Positions 8,198 to 13,446 of a stretch of 32,000 nucleotides of DNA are shown piece after piece. The notes below the pieces were generated by a model. That model saw nothing but the letters and a program-made list of their open reading frames with translations, did not search any database and had not been told where the DNA came from. Source of the DNA: Balneolaceae bacterium (GTDB lineage Bacteria > Bacteroidota > Rhodothermia > Balneolales > Balneolaceae); contig OZ252262.1 of assembly GCA_965249965.1 (NCBI GenBank), forward strand, positions 3,044,682 to 3,076,681, read 5' to 3'. Numbering within the stretch: position 1 is the stretch's first letter; each line of letters begins with the position of its first letter. The translations under genes and the position numbers were made by a program.

Positions 8198-8698
8198 ATG
8201 GCAGGTTACACCGAACTTCTTCAAACAATGTTAGCGATGGTCATCGTATCACTTCTGGTGATAAACGCTAACCGAGCAATTTTCGTAAACAATGAATCTC
8301 TTGTCGAGGGTGAGTTAGAAAATCAGGTCATTGCAATTGCTCAGGATTTTATTGAAGAATCCAGATCAACAACCTTCGATCTTGCAACTGTTAATGGCGG
8401 TGTTCCGGTTAATATTCCTGAGGGATTTAGTAGCATTGGTCCCGGAGCCGGGGAAAATACACGTGCTGATTTTAATGATTTCGACGATTATGATGGCTGG
8501 GCTGAAACCATCACCACAAATAATGGAATTACTTACGAAGTAGAAATAGATGTTAGCTATTACAAAGATGGAGCTCCAACAAACGAGAAATCAACTTTAA
8601 AACAAATGACAGTGACAATTACTTCCGATGACTTGACGACTAATGGTACATCAAAAACCTATAACTTCAAGTACTTACGAAGTTTTTACGCGGACTAA
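8198..8698 (+). CDS. Pilin/pseudopilin-like protein, cassette A member 1 (166 aa; single N-terminal hydrophobic helix)
   Basis: An in-frame TAA lies immediately upstream of the ATG. The N-terminus MAGYTELLQTMLAMVIVSLLVINANRAIF resembles a shortened prepilin G/FTLIE leader plus helix. It is paralogous to ORF 10556-10975 (MSSYAEIFYLLGAMVVFSFLSLNTARSF; AIAQDFIEE versus AVAQDELDK). Confidence 0.5.
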   Translation: MAGYTELLQTMLAMVIVSLLVINANRAIFVNNESLVEGELENQVIAIAQDFIEESRSTTFDLATVNGGVPVNIPEGFSSIGPGAGENTRADFNDFDDYDGWAETITTNNGITYEVEIDVSYYKDGAPTNEKSTLKQMTVTITSDDLTTNGTSKTYNFKYLRSFYAD

Positions 8699-8700
8699 TT

Positions 8701-9315
8701 ATGGATTTAGGCATTGTAATGAGCTACATAGTAGCTGGAATTTTAATGATCATTATACTCACTATAGGATATAACGTGAATTATAGTGGCAAGGAATTAT
8801 CACTCCAGGAAAATCAAAAAACTAAAATTAGCGAAGTAATTGAGGTTATTAATTATGATTTTCCAAAAATTGGATACAACAACGATTCACTTCCAGATAC
8901 TCTCCTATTTAGGGCAGATGCAAACTCCATACAGTTCTATTCAAATATCGATAACAGTGCTGACGGTAGTTTAGAATTTGTAACCTGGAAGTTTACTAAT
9001 AGAAATGTAACTGGTACAGAAAATCCTGATGATCAATATTTAGTTCGAATTGTAGATGTTGATTCTACCGTGATATCAGCGGGAATTGTAAACTTCACAA
9101 TAAATTATTTCGATGAACTGGGCTCTAGTACCCCATTATCTGTTCCGATCAATGCTACTACCAATAAGTCATTGATCGATGACATTGTACAAATTGAAAT
9201 TATCCTGGAAAGTGAAAGTCCCTTTGGCCTCCAATACCGAAGTTCATCAGATAAAAACTATTTAGGCTCCTCATGGACAAAGCGATTTTCACCCTCAAAT
9301 TTGAATATAAACTAA
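8701..9315 (+). CDS. Pilin-like (PilW/GspJ-like) protein, cassette A member 2 (204 aa)
   Basis: Separated by 2 nt from the previous stop. It has an N-terminal hydrophobic helix (IVMSYIVAGILMIIILTIGY). VINYDFPKIGYN and the C-terminal WTKRFSPSNLNIN are shared with paralog 10975-11559 (VLDNDFNKIGFN; WKRIFVPNNINLPY). Confidence 0.45.
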   Translation: MDLGIVMSYIVAGILMIIILTIGYNVNYSGKELSLQENQKTKISEVIEVINYDFPKIGYNNDSLPDTLLFRADANSIQFYSNIDNSADGSLEFVTWKFTNRNVTGTENPDDQYLVRIVDVDSTVISAGIVNFTINYFDELGSSTPLSVPINATTNKSLIDDIVQIEIILESESPFGLQYRSSSDKNYLGSSWTKRFSPSNLNIN

Positions 9316-9326
9316 GAGAGTAGACT

Positions 9327-10430
9327 ATGGGAAGAGCGATGATAATTTTAGCTATTGGTGCATTCGCAACACTTGGGTTAGTTAACACTGGATTGTATGA
9401 CCAAAGGCAAAGAATTTCATTATTTAATTCAGATTATGCCAAATCAATTCAAGCGAAAAATACCGCCAATACGGCAATTCAGTTAGCAATGGAGCAGATA
9501 AATGAAAATCCTAGTTGGGCACCTACTTCAGCTAATCCATGGACTCAGGAAGTAGATGGAGCTTACATTGAGTTATATTACGATGTTTTAGCAGTTGGTT
9601 CTTCTGCTACTGAACCCGATTCAATACGAATATATAGTACTGCCTGGTTTGGAGGAAAAGGGACAAGTGGAAGCTCTGAATTCAAGAACACCTCAGAAAC
9701 ACATTCAATAATAAGTACTTATCTAAAATCAGGCTTACACTTTGTACCTGAAGCAGTTGGAGGATTAGGTCTTGCTAGTGGAAACTTTAATTTTAATATG
9801 AGTGGCAGTGCTTCCATTAATGGAAATGATGCAAGCGGTACTTGTGATGACATTCCAGCTATAACCGTTCCATCCGCACTTGATTATACAGAAGTTATAA
9901 GTGGCGCAAATTTATCGAATTTAGAGAGTGATGCAGGAAAAATCGCCATCGATTCAGACATTTCTTACAGCCCTGTTGATGAACTTATTGAACGCTTAAG
10001 TAATGAACCCGGAGTGGTAAATATTAGCGGAAATTATAAAGGAGATTTCGGAACAGAAGATGATCCAGGAATATTCTTCGTAGAATCTTATGCGAAACTT
10101 ACAGGTGGAATACCTGATGGTTATGGAATATTGGTAATCAGATCGGGTGGTGAATTAGAATATGAAGGCGCTCTTTCTGTAGCTGGAAACTTCACATTTA
10201 ACGGACTTATTGTATTTGAAAATGCCTTTGACTTTGATGGGAAAGGAACTCCGGATCTAAATGGTTCAGTATTAATTGGTAATACCCCTGGCAATAACAC
10301 CATTCTTGATATTGATTTAAGTGGTAATCTACAGATCCAGTATAATTGTGAGTCACTTGATTACGCCAGAGTAGCTTCAGCTACTCATTTAAAACAAAAT
10401 AGGTATACAAGAATTAGTACCTTCGAGTAA
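9327..10430 (+). CDS. PilX-like large minor-pilin-type protein, cassette A member 3 (367 aa)
   Basis: MGRAMIILAIGAFATLGLVN followed by DYAKSIQAKNTANTAIQLAMEQINENPSW resembles the PilX N-terminal pattern (hydrophobic helix, then qA..aAeaG...). It is paralogous to 11569-13062. Confidence 0.45.
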   Translation: MGRAMIILAIGAFATLGLVNTGLYDQRQRISLFNSDYAKSIQAKNTANTAIQLAMEQINENPSWAPTSANPWTQEVDGAYIELYYDVLAVGSSATEPDSIRIYSTAWFGGKGTSGSSEFKNTSETHSIISTYLKSGLHFVPEAVGGLGLASGNFNFNMSGSASINGNDASGTCDDIPAITVPSALDYTEVISGANLSNLESDAGKIAIDSDISYSPVDELIERLSNEPGVVNISGNYKGDFGTEDDPGIFFVESYAKLTGGIPDGYGILVIRSGGELEYEGALSVAGNFTFNGLIVFENAFDFDGKGTPDLNGSVLIGNTPGNNTILDIDLSGNLQIQYNCESLDYARVASATHLKQNRYTRISTFE

Positions 10431-10555
10431 ATATTAGATTTTTATTGAATTCTTAATATTTATTTTTTCATTAAAAAAATCTTATACGAATTAGAGCAAA
10501 TTAATGGCATAAATGGTTATTGGGAGCTACTTTCTATATACCAAAACCAGCAACC

Positions 10556-10975
10556 ATGAGCAGCTACGCAGAAATATTTTACTTACTTGGAGCAATGGTA
10601 GTTTTTTCCTTCCTATCGCTCAATACAGCAAGAAGCTTTAATTCTTCGCGTCAAACCATTTATCAAGCTGAAGCAGAGTACCGAGCAATTGCTGTTGCAC
10701 AAGATGAACTTGATAAAGTTCAGTGGATCTATGAACCTGACGATTTAGACCCATCCAGTGGAAGTTATGTATACGCAAATTACCCAATAGAGGAAGTACA
10801 TAATTATGGAAGTAGCAACCAGTATAGTTCAACATTTATTATAGATGGAAATTCAGAGTTAATTGAAGATACTGGTTCAATGAAACGGTATCAGGTTACT
10901 GTATCCGTACTTAACCAAAATGTTACTCCCGAAGTATTTATTACTTTGGAATACGTAAAATCATATACCTACTAA
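10556..10975 (+). CDS. Pilin/pseudopilin-like protein, cassette B member 1 (139 aa from ATG 10556; the ORF track starts at TTG 10520)
   Basis: The ATG at 10556 gives MSSYAEIFYLLGAMVVF..., which is collinear with paralog MAGYTELL... at 8198. The TTG-extended 12 residues have no counterpart in that paralog. Confidence 0.5.
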   Translation: MSSYAEIFYLLGAMVVFSFLSLNTARSFNSSRQTIYQAEAEYRAIAVAQDELDKVQWIYEPDDLDPSSGSYVYANYPIEEVHNYGSSNQYSSTFIIDGNSELIEDTGSMKRYQVTVSVLNQNVTPEVFITLEYVKSYTY

Positions 10976-11559
10976 TGAACGCCGGATTAGCCATAACATT
11001 TGTAATTGGAGGAGTTTTCCTAATCTCTATCCTTGCGTTCAATAATTCCGTGTTGAATCAAACACAAGAAATTACCTTGAGCACCATCAACCAAAATGCA
11101 TTGGATAATTTGGTTGATGTATTAGATAACGATTTTAATAAAATAGGTTTTAACTCTGGAACCGCTGTCCCATTTACTGCCATCACTGATAAAAACATCA
11201 TTTTTCAAGGGGATGTATATGACACTGATAGCTACGGGTCAACTAACATTCGATGGTATTTCGATACCACCGACCCAGTTTCAGGTACTTCAAATCCTAA
11301 TGACTATTATTTAAAAAGAACCGGACCTATCGGTACAAGTAGTTATGGGACGATTGAATTTCCGGTTGTGTATTTCGATATGAACTATTACACCGCAGAT
11401 GGAACACCTACTACTGATAAAGCTTCAGTTAAAAAGATCGAAGTTGAAGTAATGATTGAAACCGGAGAACCATACACCGTAAATAGCGATTCTAAGCAAT
11501 ATCCACGCTTGGTATGGAAAAGAATATTTGTACCAAATAACATTAACTTACCTTATTGA
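10975..11559 (+). CDS. Pilin-like (PilW/GspJ-like) protein, cassette B member 2 (194 aa)
   Basis: Its start overlaps the previous stop (TAATG at 10973-10977). It has an N-terminal helix (LAITFVIGGVFLISILAF) and shares motifs with 8701-9315. Confidence 0.45.
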   Translation: MNAGLAITFVIGGVFLISILAFNNSVLNQTQEITLSTINQNALDNLVDVLDNDFNKIGFNSGTAVPFTAITDKNIIFQGDVYDTDSYGSTNIRWYFDTTDPVSGTSNPNDYYLKRTGPIGTSSYGTIEFPVVYFDMNYYTADGTPTTDKASVKKIEVEVMIETGEPYTVNSDSKQYPRLVWKRIFVPNNINLPY

Positions 11560-11568
11560 GGAGTAGTC

Positions 11569-13062
11569 ATGGGTAGAAGTTTATTGTTTTTAGTCTCAGG
11601 ACTAACCATAATTACCGGCATTATTCAAGTAAATAATTCAGAGCGAATTACAGAAATTCCTGAAATCTCTGTTGATTATTACAAAGCACAGCAAGCTAGA
11701 AATTTATCGAAGTCATTAATCGATAATGCGGTTGAAACTATGAAAACCAATAATAATTGGGCAGGAAGTATTAATATTTCCGAAGTAGTTGATACACTCG
11801 CCCTATTATCAAGAAATAATGATGCAAGAAAACTATTGGCTTTAGGCGAACTTAGTTTAGATGAAGTGGTATCGATAGAAAATGAACTAGAAGAGGAGCT
11901 CGCTGCACTTCTTGAAAACCCACAGAGCGGTTACTCCCCTGGAGTAGAAGTAACTGGTAAGTTATCCAGCTATACGCAAACCAGCCAAAATAAACCATCA
12001 AACAATAGTGTTGGGACTTGGGATGAATATAAAGTCCTATTACTCAGTACATCTACATATGATGATATTCAGGTTACTACCGAAGTGCTGATGCAGCGCG
12101 ACTCTTATTCAAAATATTCATACAATACACAATCAGAACTTAGTGCCTCAGGTAGTACTATTTGGTTTATGGATGCCGATAATATTTATGGGCCAATTCA
12201 CACCAATGGTCAGTTTGCAATGTCAGGTAATCCATCATTTTACGGCCTGGTAACTAGTCCAAATATGTGGCGCGCTCATTCTACCAATCCAACTAACCCA
12301 AATTTTTATGGTGGTGAAAACTTCAATGCACCTGTAAAATCAGCCCCTTCAAGTTACGAAGTAAGTAGGTTGGTAACTGCAGCTAACGACGGTGGTAAGA
12401 GGTATTCTGGTGATATAGATGCAAATTTTTATTACGATGCAAATGGTGGCTATGTAGATATTACTTATGGTGGTTCATCGGGTAATGGTTGTGCATATTG
12501 GATGTGGTGGTGTACCCCAATTCCCCCTACTCCACCAACAGTTGAAACTGTTGATTTATCAACCATAAATGGTGTTATCTCAACAGATGGTGAAATTACC
12601 GTACAAGGTGACGTAAATGGGAATGTAACATTACACTCAGAAGATGAAATACAAATTATGGGCGATATTGAGTATAAAACAAGCCCTTTGGTTGATTCAA
12701 CTTCAACTGATTTATTGGGATTAGTAAGTGAAGGAAATGTATTGGTTGACCGTTATGCACATACAGTAAATGGTACACAAGATTTAACCGTACATGCTTC
12801 CATAGTGGCAATCAATACTTCATTTTCTGTAGAAAACTACTATTCGGGCGGAGCCAGAGGTACCCTTAATATGCTTGGAGGTTTAATCCAACAAAATCGA
12901 GGCCCGGTAGGAACATTCTCCGGCTCAACTATTGTATCCGGTTATTCAAAAAATTATCAATATGACAATCGATTGAAAGCTAGTATACCTCCATCCTTCC
13001 CGCGCGAGAGCATATTTTCGATCGTTTACTGGAAAGACGAAATAACTAAAATTTCAGATTAA
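11569..13062 (+). CDS. PilX-like large minor-pilin-type protein, cassette B member 3 (497 aa)
   Basis: MGRSLLFLVSGLTIITGIIQVN followed by DYYKAQQARNLSKSLIDNAVETMKTNNNW. The C-terminal region GTLNMLGGLIQQNRGPVGTFSG...GYSKNYQYDNRL...PPSFP resembles large PilX-type proteins as I remember them. It also contains the motif CAYWMWWCTPIPPTPPT. Confidence 0.45.
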   Translation: MGRSLLFLVSGLTIITGIIQVNNSERITEIPEISVDYYKAQQARNLSKSLIDNAVETMKTNNNWAGSINISEVVDTLALLSRNNDARKLLALGELSLDEVVSIENELEEELAALLENPQSGYSPGVEVTGKLSSYTQTSQNKPSNNSVGTWDEYKVLLLSTSTYDDIQVTTEVLMQRDSYSKYSYNTQSELSASGSTIWFMDADNIYGPIHTNGQFAMSGNPSFYGLVTSPNMWRAHSTNPTNPNFYGGENFNAPVKSAPSSYEVSRLVTAANDGGKRYSGDIDANFYYDANGGYVDITYGGSSGNGCAYWMWWCTPIPPTPPTVETVDLSTINGVISTDGEITVQGDVNGNVTLHSEDEIQIMGDIEYKTSPLVDSTSTDLLGLVSEGNVLVDRYAHTVNGTQDLTVHASIVAINTSFSVENYYSGGARGTLNMLGGLIQQNRGPVGTFSGSTIVSGYSKNYQYDNRLKASIPPSFPRESIFSIVYWKDEITKISD

Positions 13063-13065
13063 TCA

Positions 13066-13446
13066 ATGAGAGTTCTTTTTGTAACACTATTTCTAATTGT
13101 ATTTACAATAGTAGCAGAAGCCCAATCTGTTACTTTTAATGTAAATCTAAAACCTCAATTAGAAGACAGTTCATTTGTACCTGGGCGCGATGAATTAAAA
13201 ATAGTTGGTGATTTATATCCTTTAAATACACCCACACCGTACATACTTTTTGATGAAGAACCCATAGATAGTGTGTATTCAATTACAGTGCGTTTTTCAT
13301 CGCGTTTTCGAAATCAAACTCTTACCTATAATTTCGAAATGTTGTCAAACTATGTGCGTTTAACTGAAGTTCTTCCAAGGAATTTACAACTCCAGGGCAG
13401 AGAAGTTGATCTTGACGCAATGTATTTCAATGCCTTCGCCTGGTAA
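13066..13446 (+). CDS. Small secreted protein (126 aa), possible beta-sandwich/CBM20-like fold
   Basis: Starts 3 nt after the previous stop. It has a signal peptide (MRVLFVTLFLIVFTIVAEAQ). VTFNVNL...ELKIVGD...YSITVRF weakly resembles CBM20-type modules, so the function call is weak. Confidence 0.3.
   Translation: MRVLFVTLFLIVFTIVAEAQSVTFNVNLKPQLEDSSFVPGRDELKIVGDLYPLNTPTPYILFDEEPIDSVYSITVRFSSRFRNQTLTYNFEMLSNYVRLTEVLPRNLQLQGREVDLDAMYFNAFAW

What the first reader, a model, noticed from the sequence alone, without database searches (positions are those of the whole stretch)
8198..13062. Tandem duplication of a three-gene pilin-like cassette with non-canonical leaders and no major pilin, ATPase, platform or prepilin peptidase nearby
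Seen in sequence: ORFs 8198/8701/9327 and 10556/10975/11569 are pairwise paralogous in the same order. Pair 1 is MAGYTELLQTMLAMVIV versus MSSYAEIFYLLGAMVVF. Pair 2 is NYDFPKIGYN versus DNDFNKIGFN. Pair 3 is MGRAMIILAIGAF...DYAKSIQAKNTANTAIQLAMEQINENPSW versus MGRSLLFLVSGL...DYYKAQQARNLSKSLIDNAVETMKTNNNW. Every member has one N-terminal hydrophobic helix followed by a soluble domain, as in type IV minor pilins (PilV/W/X) or T2SS pseudopilins (GspI/J/K). The leaders deviate from the canonical G/FTLIE pattern. Member 1 has G-Y-T-E (Glu at +3 rather than +5) or S-Y-A-E, and members 2 and 3 lack the Glu. Established knowledge: minor-pilin sets form the tip or priming complex of type IV filaments, often carrying a large adhesin. 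Inference: there may be two alternative priming or tip complexes, or else membrane-anchored periplasmic components that have been co-opted and are no longer processed by a prepilin peptidase.
Basis: partly seen in the sequence, partly recalled or inferred. Interest (0 to 1): 0.65.

Follow-up and report, generated by a model that had tools for sequence, protein, structure and literature searches.

The report
Duplicated leaderless minor-pilin tip cassettes
The six genes are two old copies of a three-gene set of pilus "starter/tip" subunits that serve a type IV pilus machine encoded 470 kb away; they matter because this unannotated, widespread pilus system has subunits with no leader peptide, in genomes with no prepilin peptidase.

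Summary
ORFs 8198/8701/9327 and 10556/10975/11569 are pairwise paralogous in the same order (BLASTP E 4e-9, 6e-21, 4e-7; member-3 profiles E 8e-16).

They are best read as minor-pilin-like tip or priming sets (m1-m2-m3).
- In same-order and same-family relatives, and in 8 metagenome loci plus L045, the triplet sits inside a type IV pilus operon: pilin-PilC-PilB-m1-m2-m3-PilT-PilM-PilO-PilQ.
- This genome has that operon at 2.57 Mb, but the triplet is missing from it. Cassettes A and B are its only m1/m2/m3 genes.
- The member-3B model matches only the Thermus tip pilin ComZ in the PDB (E 5e-8).
- The member-2B model is a 53-residue helix plus beta-sheets, but it matches no solved pilin.

There are no leaders at all. 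All six ORFs, and the MGQQQLLL major pilins, start at the hydrophobic helix. The genome lacks Peptidase_A24 and the N_methyl motif. Member 1 has Glu at position 6, which is +5 after Met removal.

The A/B split is one old duplication within Balneolales, and copy number varies from 1 to 3.

Alternative priming complexes are a known idea (cyanobacteria, Myxococcus). The leaderless form and the move into an adhesin/usher/rotor island are new variants. Earlier notes of this scan reported the same kind of cassette and leaderless pilins on other DNA (Ignavibacteria, Cloacimonadota).

The parts
8198..8698 (+). Cassette A, member 1 (166 aa). Small minor-pilin-like subunit that starts MAGYTE, with Glu at position 6 (+5 after Met excision).
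   Evidence: ORF. An in-frame TAA lies 2 codons upstream. Paralogue of 10556. Acidic residue at position 6 in the 54 full-length Balneolales orthologues listed. Homologues sit between PilB and member 2 in pilus operons, and one starts MGQQQLLL like the major pilin (L047). Not modelled. hhalign against the pilin family is weak.
8701..9315 (+). Cassette A, member 2 (204 aa). Minor-pilin-like subunit in the PilW/GspJ position.
   Evidence: 29% identical over the full length to 10975-11559 (E 6e-21). Falls in the A2 clade. The family has 763 clusters at 50% identity.
9327..10430 (+). Cassette A, member 3 (367 aa). Cap-type subunit in the PilX/ComZ position; starts MGR and has no acidic residue near the N-terminus.
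   Evidence: Profile homology to the member-3B family over residues 1-167 (E 8e-16). The start MG[RK] is invariant in orthologues. Its C-terminal domain was not modelled.
10556..10975 (+). Cassette B, member 1 (139 aa). Starts MSSYAE, with Glu at position 6.
   Evidence: Nearly all orthologues are 139-aa ORFs that begin at the equivalent ATG, so the TTG at 10520 is not the start.
10975..11559 (+). Cassette B, member 2 (194 aa). The start overlaps the stop of member 1B.
   Evidence: AlphaFold2 model with pLDDT 85.7: one helix at residues 3-55, then beta-sheets. No significant PDB fold match (best E 0.04). No Pfam or NCBIfam family.
11569..13062 (+). Cassette B, member 3 (497 aa). ComZ-like tip pilin with an inserted beta-solenoid; it carries the only Pfam hit of the six (DUF4900).
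   Evidence: DUF4900 at E 2e-7. AlphaFold2 model with pLDDT 82: helix 3-60, a beta-sheet, a long run of short strands, and a closing C-terminal strand. The only significant Foldseek PDB hits are ComZ 6qvi chains A-C (E 5e-8 to 1.4e-7, probability 1.0). Ice-binding beta-solenoids come next at E > 0.1.
13066..13446 (+). Cassette B, fourth gene (126 aa). Small Sec-secreted protein of unknown role, 3 nt after member 3B.
   Evidence: Follows member 3B in almost all B cassettes, and it is duplicated together with member 3B in L028. No Pfam family.

Best explanation
The two cassettes encode two alternative sets of minor pilins, each m1-m2-m3, with a cap-type ComZ/PilX-like m3. These sets would nucleate and sit at the tip of the filament built by the genome's type IV-pilus-like machine at 2.57 Mb. 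That machine comprises three MGQQQLLL pilins (two in the cluster, one orphan), PilC, PilB, PilT, PilM/O-like proteins and a secretin.

Shown:
- The genes are paralogous triplets.
- The same triplet lies inside that pilus operon in relatives.
- This genome's operon lacks the triplet, and the window holds the only copies.
- Member 3B is ComZ-like.
- None of the subunits has room for a leader.
- No prepilin peptidase gene is present.

Inferred:
- The three proteins stack by their N-terminal helices into a priming complex with m3 on top. m3 has no acidic residue, as in PilX/GspK.
- m1, with Glu at +5 after Met excision, links the complex to the fibre below.
- Each cassette gives the same machine a pilus with a different tip.
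- Maturation needs only Met removal, not a prepilin peptidase.
- Placement downstream of the giant T9SS adhesin reflects co-regulation within a surface-adhesion island.
For: Paralogy and conservation.

Triplet inside pilus operons: L045; L051, L054, L055, L090, L095, L096, L125 and L128; and relatives G105, G115 and G255 of the same order or family.

Own operon: it reads PilB-cNMP-PilT without the triplet. In G105 the order is PilB-m1-cNMP-m2-m3-PilT.

Only copies in this genome. Only five ORFs start MG[QRKG] followed by a hydrophobic helix: the 3 pilins and the 2 member-3 genes.

Phylogenetic profile on 301 genomes:
- m2 is found in 207 and the pilin in 225, with matching family tallies. Examples: f17 0/34 vs 1/34, f12 17/21 vs 21/21, f10 0/3 vs 0/3.
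- Within Balneolaceae, using the narrower A1 profile for member 2: 96 genomes have both, 15 neither, 5 m2 only and 10 pilin only.

Structure: the m3 model matches ComZ. The m2 model has a 53-residue N-terminal helix plus beta-sheets.

No peptidase or N_methyl motif. Peptidase_A24 is present in only 36/301 genomes.

No room for a leader.

Precedents: ComZ as a tip pilin (PMC6561018). Two core minor-pilin complexes priming two filaments on one machine, a beta-solenoid PilX as cap, and PilX lacking Glu5 (PMC13759059).
Against: - No significant fold match of member 2 to any solved pilin.
- No Pfam or NCBIfam pilin family hits any of the six. No PDB sequence hit either.
- Member 1 against the pilin family by hhalign gives only 14% probability.
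- Members 1A, 1B, 2A and 3A were not modelled, and no complex could be predicted.
- In this genome the cassettes sit in one gene string with a T9SS adhesin, DUF4402 subunits, a chaperone, an usher, FliF-FliG and MotAB. That arrangement is conserved in many Balneolaceae, so a role in that apparatus is not excluded.
- All 44 sampled genomes with the rotor orthologue also carry the triplet.
- There are no expression or protein data.
Confidence: 0.7

Rival explanations
1. The cassettes were co-opted into the neighbouring apparatus: giant T9SS adhesin, DUF4402 chaperone-usher pilus, and a FliF-FliG rotor with a MotAB stator. For example, they might act as inner-membrane-anchored periplasmic shafts or adaptors, and no longer work with the type IV pilus machine.
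For: The gene string adhesin, cassettes, DUF4402 x4, chaperone, usher, FliF-FliG, TPR, MotA, MotB is tightly spaced. It is conserved down to about 54% identity. All 44 sampled Balneolaceae genomes with the rotor orthologue also have member 2.
Against: The triplet is far more widespread than the rotor. It occurs in 101/126 Balneolaceae genomes against about 44/126 for the rotor. It is also present in the sister families f3, f6 and f7, where the rotor was not found. It stands alone in Aliifodinibius/Fodinibius. None of 37 longer metagenome loci pairs it with FliFG, MotA, DUF4402 or an usher. The own pilus operon has lost its in-operon triplet and would otherwise have no minor pilins.
Confidence: 0.15
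2. The triplets are GspI/J/K-type pseudopilin tips of a secretion piston. On this reading the 2.57-Mb machine acts as a type II-like secretion system rather than building an extended pilus, and the two cassettes select different cargo.
For: The three-gene order and the cap subunit without Glu resemble GspI-J-K (established knowledge). The machine has a secretin, an ATPase and a platform.
Against: The operon carries a PilT-type second ATPase and PilM/O-like genes. My ORF reading found no GspC/L/M-like genes in it. The major subunit profile hits true type IV pilins first in the PDB. Member 3 matches ComZ, a pilus tip protein.
Confidence: 0.08
3. The six proteins are ordinary signal-anchored periplasmic proteins unrelated to pilins, and the resemblance is only a shared N-terminal membrane helix.
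For: No pilin family in Pfam or NCBIfam. No class III signal peptide. Member 2 has no PDB fold match.
Against: Fixed position inside type IV pilus operons in many lineages. ComZ fold match. Family tallies that mirror those of the pilin. Uninterrupted helices of 53 and 58 residues in the two models. One member-1 homologue starts with the pilin's own MGQQQLLL.
Confidence: 0.03

Closest known systems
Thermus thermophilus competence pilin locus pilA1-pilA2-pilA3-comZ (ComZ, PDB 6qvi; Salleh et al. 2019, PMC6561018)
   Same: A run of small pilin genes ends in a large pilin-framework protein with an inserted beta-solenoid that can only sit at the fibre tip. Member 3B's only significant PDB fold hits are ComZ. 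DUF4900 also rings in the T. thermophilus control genome.
   Different: Thermus pilins have class III leaders and a PilD. Here there is no leader and no peptidase. Sequence similarity to ComZ is undetectable, and global TM-scores are low (0.26-0.30). DNA binding by member 3 is untested.
Two core minor-pilin complexes of cyanobacteria (PilV/PilW/PilX sets; Schuergers et al. 2026, PMC13759059)
   Same: Two paralogous minor-pilin sets serve one shared machine and are proposed to prime two specialised filaments. PilX carries an ice-binding-like beta-solenoid and replaces PilY1 as the cap. Member 3B's next-best fold hits are ice-binding proteins.
   Different: The cyanobacterial pilins are canonical prepilins. 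The sets here are tandem and sit outside the pilus operon, beside an adhesin/usher/rotor island. Copy number varies from 1 to 3 among close relatives.
Pseudomonas FimU-PilVWXE/PilY1 and the Myxococcus xanthus minor-pilin/PilY1 clusters (Nguyen 2015 and Treuner-Lange 2020, as cited in PMC13759059)
   Same: Consecutive minor-pilin genes next to a large adhesin gene. The cap subunit lacks Glu5. Several alternative clusters occur in one genome (established knowledge).
   Different: No PilY1 homologue. The neighbouring adhesin has a T9SS sorting domain, so it is probably exported separately. There is no Pfam PilV/W/X or N_methyl signature.
T2SS minor pseudopilins GspH-I-J-K
   Same: Three to four small subunits with N-terminal helices form a tip, and GspK lacks Glu5 (established knowledge).
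   Different: The associated machine has PilT and PilM/O-like genes, and I found no GspC/L/M-like genes in it. No sequence or fold match to GspI/J/K was found.

Membership tests
Type IV pilins / pseudopilins (class III signal peptide, Pfam N_methyl PF07963) | Short positively charged leader ending in Gly(-1), cleaved and N-methylated by a prepilin peptidase (Peptidase_A24) | tested here: not met
   No N_methyl match in the whole genome. No PF01478 or PF06750. Every ORF begins at the hydrophobic helix, with a stop or the ORF limit just upstream.
Type IV pilins / pseudopilins (class III signal peptide, Pfam N_methyl PF07963) | Acidic residue at position 5 of the mature protein, absent from the cap subunit | tested here: inconclusive
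   Member 1 always has Glu or Asp at precursor position 6, which is +5 if only Met1 is removed after Ala/Ser/Gly. Distant member-2 proteins have Asp or Glu at position 6. Members 2B, 3A and 3B have no acidic residue there (2A has only Asp2), and the major pilins have Gln instead. The mature N-termini are unknown.
Type IV pilins / pseudopilins (class III signal peptide, Pfam N_methyl PF07963) | 'Lollipop' fold: an N-terminal helix of about 50 residues packed on an antiparallel beta-sheet | tested here: inconclusive
   The models have helices at 3-55 (member 2B) and 3-60 (member 3B) followed by beta-sheets, at pLDDT 86 and 82. Member 2B has no significant match to a solved pilin. Four of the six proteins were not modelled.
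Core minor-pilin priming set of a type IV pilus (PilV/W/X-like) | Encoded with, and co-distributed with, a type IV pilus machine (pilin, PilB, PilC, PilT, PilMNO, secretin) | tested here: met
   In-operon position in L045, in 8 metagenome loci, and in relatives G105, G115 and G255. Family tallies mirror those of the pilin across 30 families. In this genome the machine is 470 kb away.
Core minor-pilin priming set of a type IV pilus (PilV/W/X-like) | The subunits form a tip complex that primes assembly and is incorporated into the fibre | not testable with these tools
   No multimer prediction was available, and there are no protein or mutant data.
ComZ / beta-solenoid PilX tip pilins | Pilin framework interrupted by a large beta-solenoid before the last strand | tested here: met
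   For member 3B only: Foldseek hits ComZ 6qvi at E 5e-8 to 1.4e-7 over about 500 columns. The secondary-structure order is helix, sheet, solenoid, closing strand. Member 3A shares the first 167 residues, but its C-terminal domain was not modelled.
T2SS minor pseudopilins GspI/J/K | Encoded in a gsp operon with GspC/L/M and no retraction ATPase; sequence or fold similarity to GspI/J/K | tested here: not met
   The linked operon has a PilT-type ATPase and PilM/O-like genes. There are no GspI/J/K hits by Pfam, PDB sequence or fold search.

The most novel reading that the evidence does not exclude
The whole filament system, including the three major pilins and these six minor pilins, is assembled from leaderless subunits with no prepilin peptidase step. 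The mature N-terminus would be made by Met excision alone, which puts member 1's Glu at +5. In Balneolaceae the priming cassettes have also been moved out of the pilus operon into an adhesin/chaperone-usher/FliFG-MotAB island. The choice of pilus tip would then be controlled by that island, or even mechanically coupled to it.
Probability: 0.4. Interest if true: 0.8.

Novelty: new variant of a known kind. Interest (0 to 1): 0.6.

Why it matters
Minor-pilin priming complexes are known, and alternative sets that specialise one machine have recently been shown in cyanobacteria. The new points here are these:

- **An unannotated family.** The triplet family is large: member 2 alone has 763 clusters at 50% identity. 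Every hit that a source named is called 'hypothetical protein', and none has a precomputed Pfam domain.
- **No leader and no peptidase.** The subunits and their major pilins have no leader peptide, and most genomes carrying them have no prepilin peptidase. Peptidase_A24 was found in 36/301 genomes, against the pilin in 225/301. That enzyme is treated as a core part of type IV filament systems (established knowledge). A pilus that does without it would change how such systems are recognised in genomes, since detection relies on N_methyl and PilD.
- **A natural experiment.** In Balneolaceae the priming genes have left the pilus operon, duplicated, and been differentially lost. Genomes carry A only, B only, A+B, or A+B+B.
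- **Cultivable organisms to test in.** Gracilimonas tropica DSM 19535 and Aliifodinibius salipaludis WN023 both carry the cassettes.

Tried and rejected
- **Family scans.** Pfam and NCBIfam scans of the six proteins gave only DUF4900 in member 3B. A Pfam scan of 42 distant member-2 proteins gave nothing consistent. One precomputed weak PpdB hit on P0189 was not reproduced.
- **PDB sequence searches.** Single proteins and family profiles for members 1, 2 and 3 gave no meaningful hits.
- **Foldseek of the member-2B model.** Only chance-level hits, mainly levivirus coat proteins and streptavidin, at E >= 0.04. I do not read these as homology.
- **hhalign of the member-1 family against the MGQQQ pilin family.** Probability 14%, N-terminal helix only. 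Too weak to use.
- **Reading Gly3 of MAGYTE as the -1 cleavage site.** Rejected because the B paralogue has Ser there, no peptidase exists, and position 6 is the conserved acidic site.
- **TTG at 10520 as the start of member 1B.** Rejected on orthologue ORF limits.
- **First metagenome scan with the 42-sequence alignment.** Failed for lack of a conserved stretch. An 8-sequence subset worked.
- **Literature searches.** 'leaderless pilin', DUF4900, and type IV filament + prepilin peptidase + Bacteroidota found nothing relevant. The DUF2341/MotA papers did not bear on the cassettes. My recollection that MshQ-type pilus adhesins carry DUF2341/LamG was not checked and is not used.
- **Promoter and terminator scan.** No convincing terminator lies between the cassettes.

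Full report
**1. What is in the window**

The window lies at 3,044,682-3,076,681 of a complete 3.48-Mb genome (99.4% complete, one contig). The names attached to near-identical proteins and loci place it in Balneolaceae.

Nearly all genes from 28 to 24794 are on the + strand and closely spaced. In order they are:
- a 2689-aa adhesin with DUF2341, Laminin_G_3, Invasin_D3 and a T9SS sorting tail
- the six ORFs of the finding
- a small secreted protein
- four DUF4402-like subunits
- a chaperone-like protein
- an usher-like protein
- a membrane protein with FliG N/M/C domains
- a TPR lipoprotein
- MotA
- a MotB-OmpA-SPOR protein

**2. The observation**

The six ORFs and the quoted peptide strings are exact.

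The pairs are homologous:
- Pair 1: E 4e-9 over the first 50 residues.
- Pair 2: E 6e-21 and 29% identity end to end.
- Pair 3: E 4e-7 over 65 residues.
- Family profiles extend pair 3 to 162 columns at E 8e-16.

Each protein has a single hydrophobic segment, and it lies within the first 30 residues.

Apart from DUF4900 in the 497-aa protein (E 2e-7), no Pfam or NCBIfam family matches any of them.

**3. Conservation and history**

A genome-collection scan returned 39 Balneolales loci. I mapped the window's proteins onto them, which showed the cassettes in the same order but in varying number:

| Arrangement | Loci |
|---|---|
| B only | 9 loci |
| A+B | L005, L008, L011, L016-L018, L023, L024, L029, L030 |
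| A+B+B | L009 |
| B'+B | L019, L020 |
| B then A | L031, L032 |
| A only, beside the adhesin | L034-L036, L041 |
| A alone, flanked by sigma/anti-sigma and sensor-kinase genes | Aliifodinibius/Fodinibius, L040, L042-L044 |

A maximum-likelihood tree of 151 member-2 proteins gives this picture:
- All Balneolales A copies form one clade (support 99/84).
- All Balneolales B copies form one clade (99/92).
- The two clades are sisters (100/99), apart from the non-Balneolales copies.

I read this as one old duplication inside the order. It was followed by losses and a few younger duplications. Tandem copies elsewhere arose independently.

The 126-aa secreted protein at 13066 follows member 3B almost everywhere. 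In L028 it is duplicated together with member 3B.

**4. The link to a type IV pilus machine**

A profile of member 2 finds 763 clusters (50% identity) in 1.84 billion proteins. All of the best 150 listed are about 90-230 aa long and match from their first residues.

The context of a distant member (L045) reads as follows:
- a 137-aa pilin that starts MGQQQLLL
- PilC (T2SSF)
- PilB (T2SSE)
- a member-1-like protein
- a response-regulator/cNMP protein
- the member-2 homologue
- a DUF4900 protein that starts MGR

A metagenome scan with one motif gave 326 confirmed loci. In the 37 kept loci of at least 6 kb:
- The order m1-m2-m3 is kept at each complete set.
- 8 loci place the triplet inside or directly beside pilin-PilC-PilB-[...]-PilT-PilM-PilO-PilQ.
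- 10 loci have tandem duplicated or triplicated cassettes.
- None has FliFG, MotA, DUF4402 or usher homologues next to it.

The arrangement is also found in close relatives:
- G105, same order: pilin-pilin-PilC-PilB-m1-cNMP-m2-m3-PilT-PilM-PilO-PilQ.
- G115 and G255, same family: the same order without the cNMP gene.

**5. This genome's own machine**

The machine lies at C1:2570404-2580897. In order, it holds:
- two MGQQQL pilins
- PilC
- PilB
- a cNMP-binding protein
- a PilT-like ATPase
- PilM/O-like proteins
- a secretin

A third pilin paralogue lies at 891354.

Between PilB and PilT only the cNMP gene remains. The triplet that relatives have there is gone.

The member-2 profile and DUF4900 hit nothing in the genome outside the window. 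Only five ORFs in the genome begin MG[QRKG] followed by a hydrophobic helix: the three pilins and the two member-3 genes.

So the window's cassettes are the only candidate minor pilins for that machine.

**6. Phylogenetic profiles**

I searched one sample of 301 Rhodothermia genomes, each at least 90% complete.

| Query | Genomes with a match |
|---|---|
| MGQQQ pilin | 225 |
| Member 2, broad profile | 207 |
| Peptidase_A24 | 36 |

The family tallies of member 2 and the pilin mirror each other (member 2 vs pilin):
- f12: 17/21 vs 21/21
- f22: 16/20 vs 19/20
- f16: 10/13 vs 10/13
- f17: 0/34 vs 1/34
- f10: 0/3 vs 0/3
- f20: 1/15 vs 4/15

Within Balneolaceae I compared the narrower A1 member-2 profile with the pilin. 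The result was 96 genomes with both, 15 with neither, 5 with member 2 only (all fragmented assemblies) and 10 with the pilin only. Related genomes are not independent, so these are descriptive counts and not a test.

The FliF-FliG protein has clear orthologues in only about 44 of 126 Balneolaceae genomes. It has none in the sister families f3, f6 and f7, which do have the triplet. The reverse also holds: all 44 rotor-bearing genomes carry the triplet.

**7. No leader and no peptidase**

- The pilin genes have in-frame stops 1 and 4 codons upstream of the ATG, and one has an AGGAG 7 nt upstream.
- Member 1A has a TAA two codons upstream.
- The other ORFs begin at the first possible start codon.
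- Orthologues fix member 1B at 10556.
- The genome has no Peptidase_A24, no A24_N_bact and no N_methyl motif. Several families with the pilin in every sampled genome have no A24 match at all, for example f12 at 0/21.

N-terminal patterns:

| Protein | N-terminal pattern |
|---|---|
| Major pilins | MGQQQ[LV]LL in 14 of 14 metagenome copies |
| Member 3 | MG[RK] |
| Member 1, A type | M-[AVSI]-G-[YT]-x-E |
| Member 1, B type | M-x-x-[YF]-x-[ED] |
| Distant member 2 | M-x-x-x-L-[DE] |

Met aminopeptidase removes Met before Gly, Ala or Ser (established knowledge). The conserved acidic residue of member 1 would therefore sit at +5 of the mature protein, the classical pilin position. Member 3 has none, like the PilX cap described in PMC13759059. 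This is inference. The mature ends are unknown.

**8. Structures**

Member 2B:
- AlphaFold2 with 48 sequences gave pLDDT 85.7, one helix at residues 3-55, and then ten strands.
- That is the pilin architecture, but Foldseek found no significant PDB match (best E 0.04).

Member 3B:
- AlphaFold2 with 32 sequences gave pLDDT 82.
- The model has helix 3-60, a small helical insert, a sheet, a long run of short strands, and a final strand.
- Its only significant PDB matches are the three chains of Thermus thermophilus ComZ (6qvi; E 5e-8 to 1.4e-7, probability 1.0). Ice-binding beta-solenoids follow at E > 0.1.

ComZ is a pilin framework with an inserted beta-solenoid that is argued to fit only at the pilus tip (PMC6561018). 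Cyanobacterial PilX proteins have the same build and are proposed to be the cap (PMC13759059).

The major pilin profile's best PDB hits are true type IV pilins, over the helix only and weakly (E 0.015).

**9. Explanation**

The best reading is that the cassettes are two alternative tip or priming sets for the leaderless pilus machine, acting in trans. I give this a confidence of 0.7.

The rivals are:
- co-option into the adhesin/usher/rotor apparatus (0.15)
- a secretion-piston role (0.08)
- unrelated membrane anchors (0.03)

The first rival cannot be dismissed, because the synteny with that apparatus is conserved and the rotor never occurs without the triplet in the sample. The triplet's much wider distribution and the triplet-less pilus operon both argue against it.

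**10. Novelty**

Alternative minor-pilin sets on one machine are published (PMC13759059). So is the ComZ-type tip (PMC6561018).

I found no paper on leaderless pilins or on this family. Every homologue that a source named is a 'hypothetical protein', and none has a precomputed Pfam domain.

Earlier notes of this scan describe the same kind of duplicated triplet and MGQQQLLL pilins in Ignavibacteria and Cloacimonadota. My evidence was gathered independently on this genome and its relatives, and it agrees with them.

I file the finding as a new variant of a known kind.

**11. Limits**

- Four of the six proteins were not modelled, and no complex prediction was possible.
- Taxon labels of the metagenome loci are known only as 'Bacteroidota/Bacteroidetes bacterium'.

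Noticed in passing
window 13066-13446: A 126-aa Sec-secreted protein with no family match follows member 3B in almost every B cassette. It is duplicated together with member 3B in L028, and a fragment-like copy precedes an A cassette in L041. Cassette B is therefore a four-gene unit. The protein's role is unknown; it could be a partner or chaperone of the beta-solenoid cap.
   Followed up: partly
genome G000:C1:2574468-2574971 (outside the window): The own pilus operon reads PilB, cNMP-binding protein, PilT. In relative G105 the homologous cNMP gene sits between member 1 and member 2 of the in-operon triplet. This genome's operon therefore looks like a version from which the triplet was lost while the regulator gene stayed.
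   Followed up: yes
genome G000:C1:414016-415821 (outside the window): A second, distant paralogue (about 26% identity) of the FliF-FliG fusion protein is encoded elsewhere in this genome. Similar second copies occur in many relatives.
   Followed up: no
genome G000:C1:891354-891761 (outside the window): A third MGQQQLLL pilin gene, 57% identical to the operon's first pilin, stands alone between unrelated genes. It may be a second major subunit that could pair with one of the two cassettes.
   Followed up: no
metagenome loci L062, L064, L065, L068, L069, L079, L080, L087, L094, L103, L104, L120, L121: A response-regulator/cNMP-binding gene recurs immediately downstream of member 3 even when the triplet stands apart from the pilus operon. 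This suggests a dedicated regulator travels with the cassette.
   Followed up: no
class sample: All 44 sampled Balneolaceae genomes with a clear orthologue of the window's FliF-FliG protein also carry the triplet, whereas 57 triplet-bearing genomes lack the rotor. The dependence, if any, runs from the rotor island to the cassettes and not the other way.
   Followed up: partly
L026:2349-3972: In one MAG, labelled Roseivirgaceae but with Balneolaceae-like genes, member 3B is split into two ORFs of 158 and 308 aa. This is a frameshift, a pseudogene or an assembly error.
   Followed up: no
window 10520-10555: A TTG 12 codons upstream extends the member-1B ORF (MGATFYIPKPAT...). Orthologue ORFs start at the ATG equivalent to 10556, so an automatic caller may mis-annotate this start.
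   Followed up: yes
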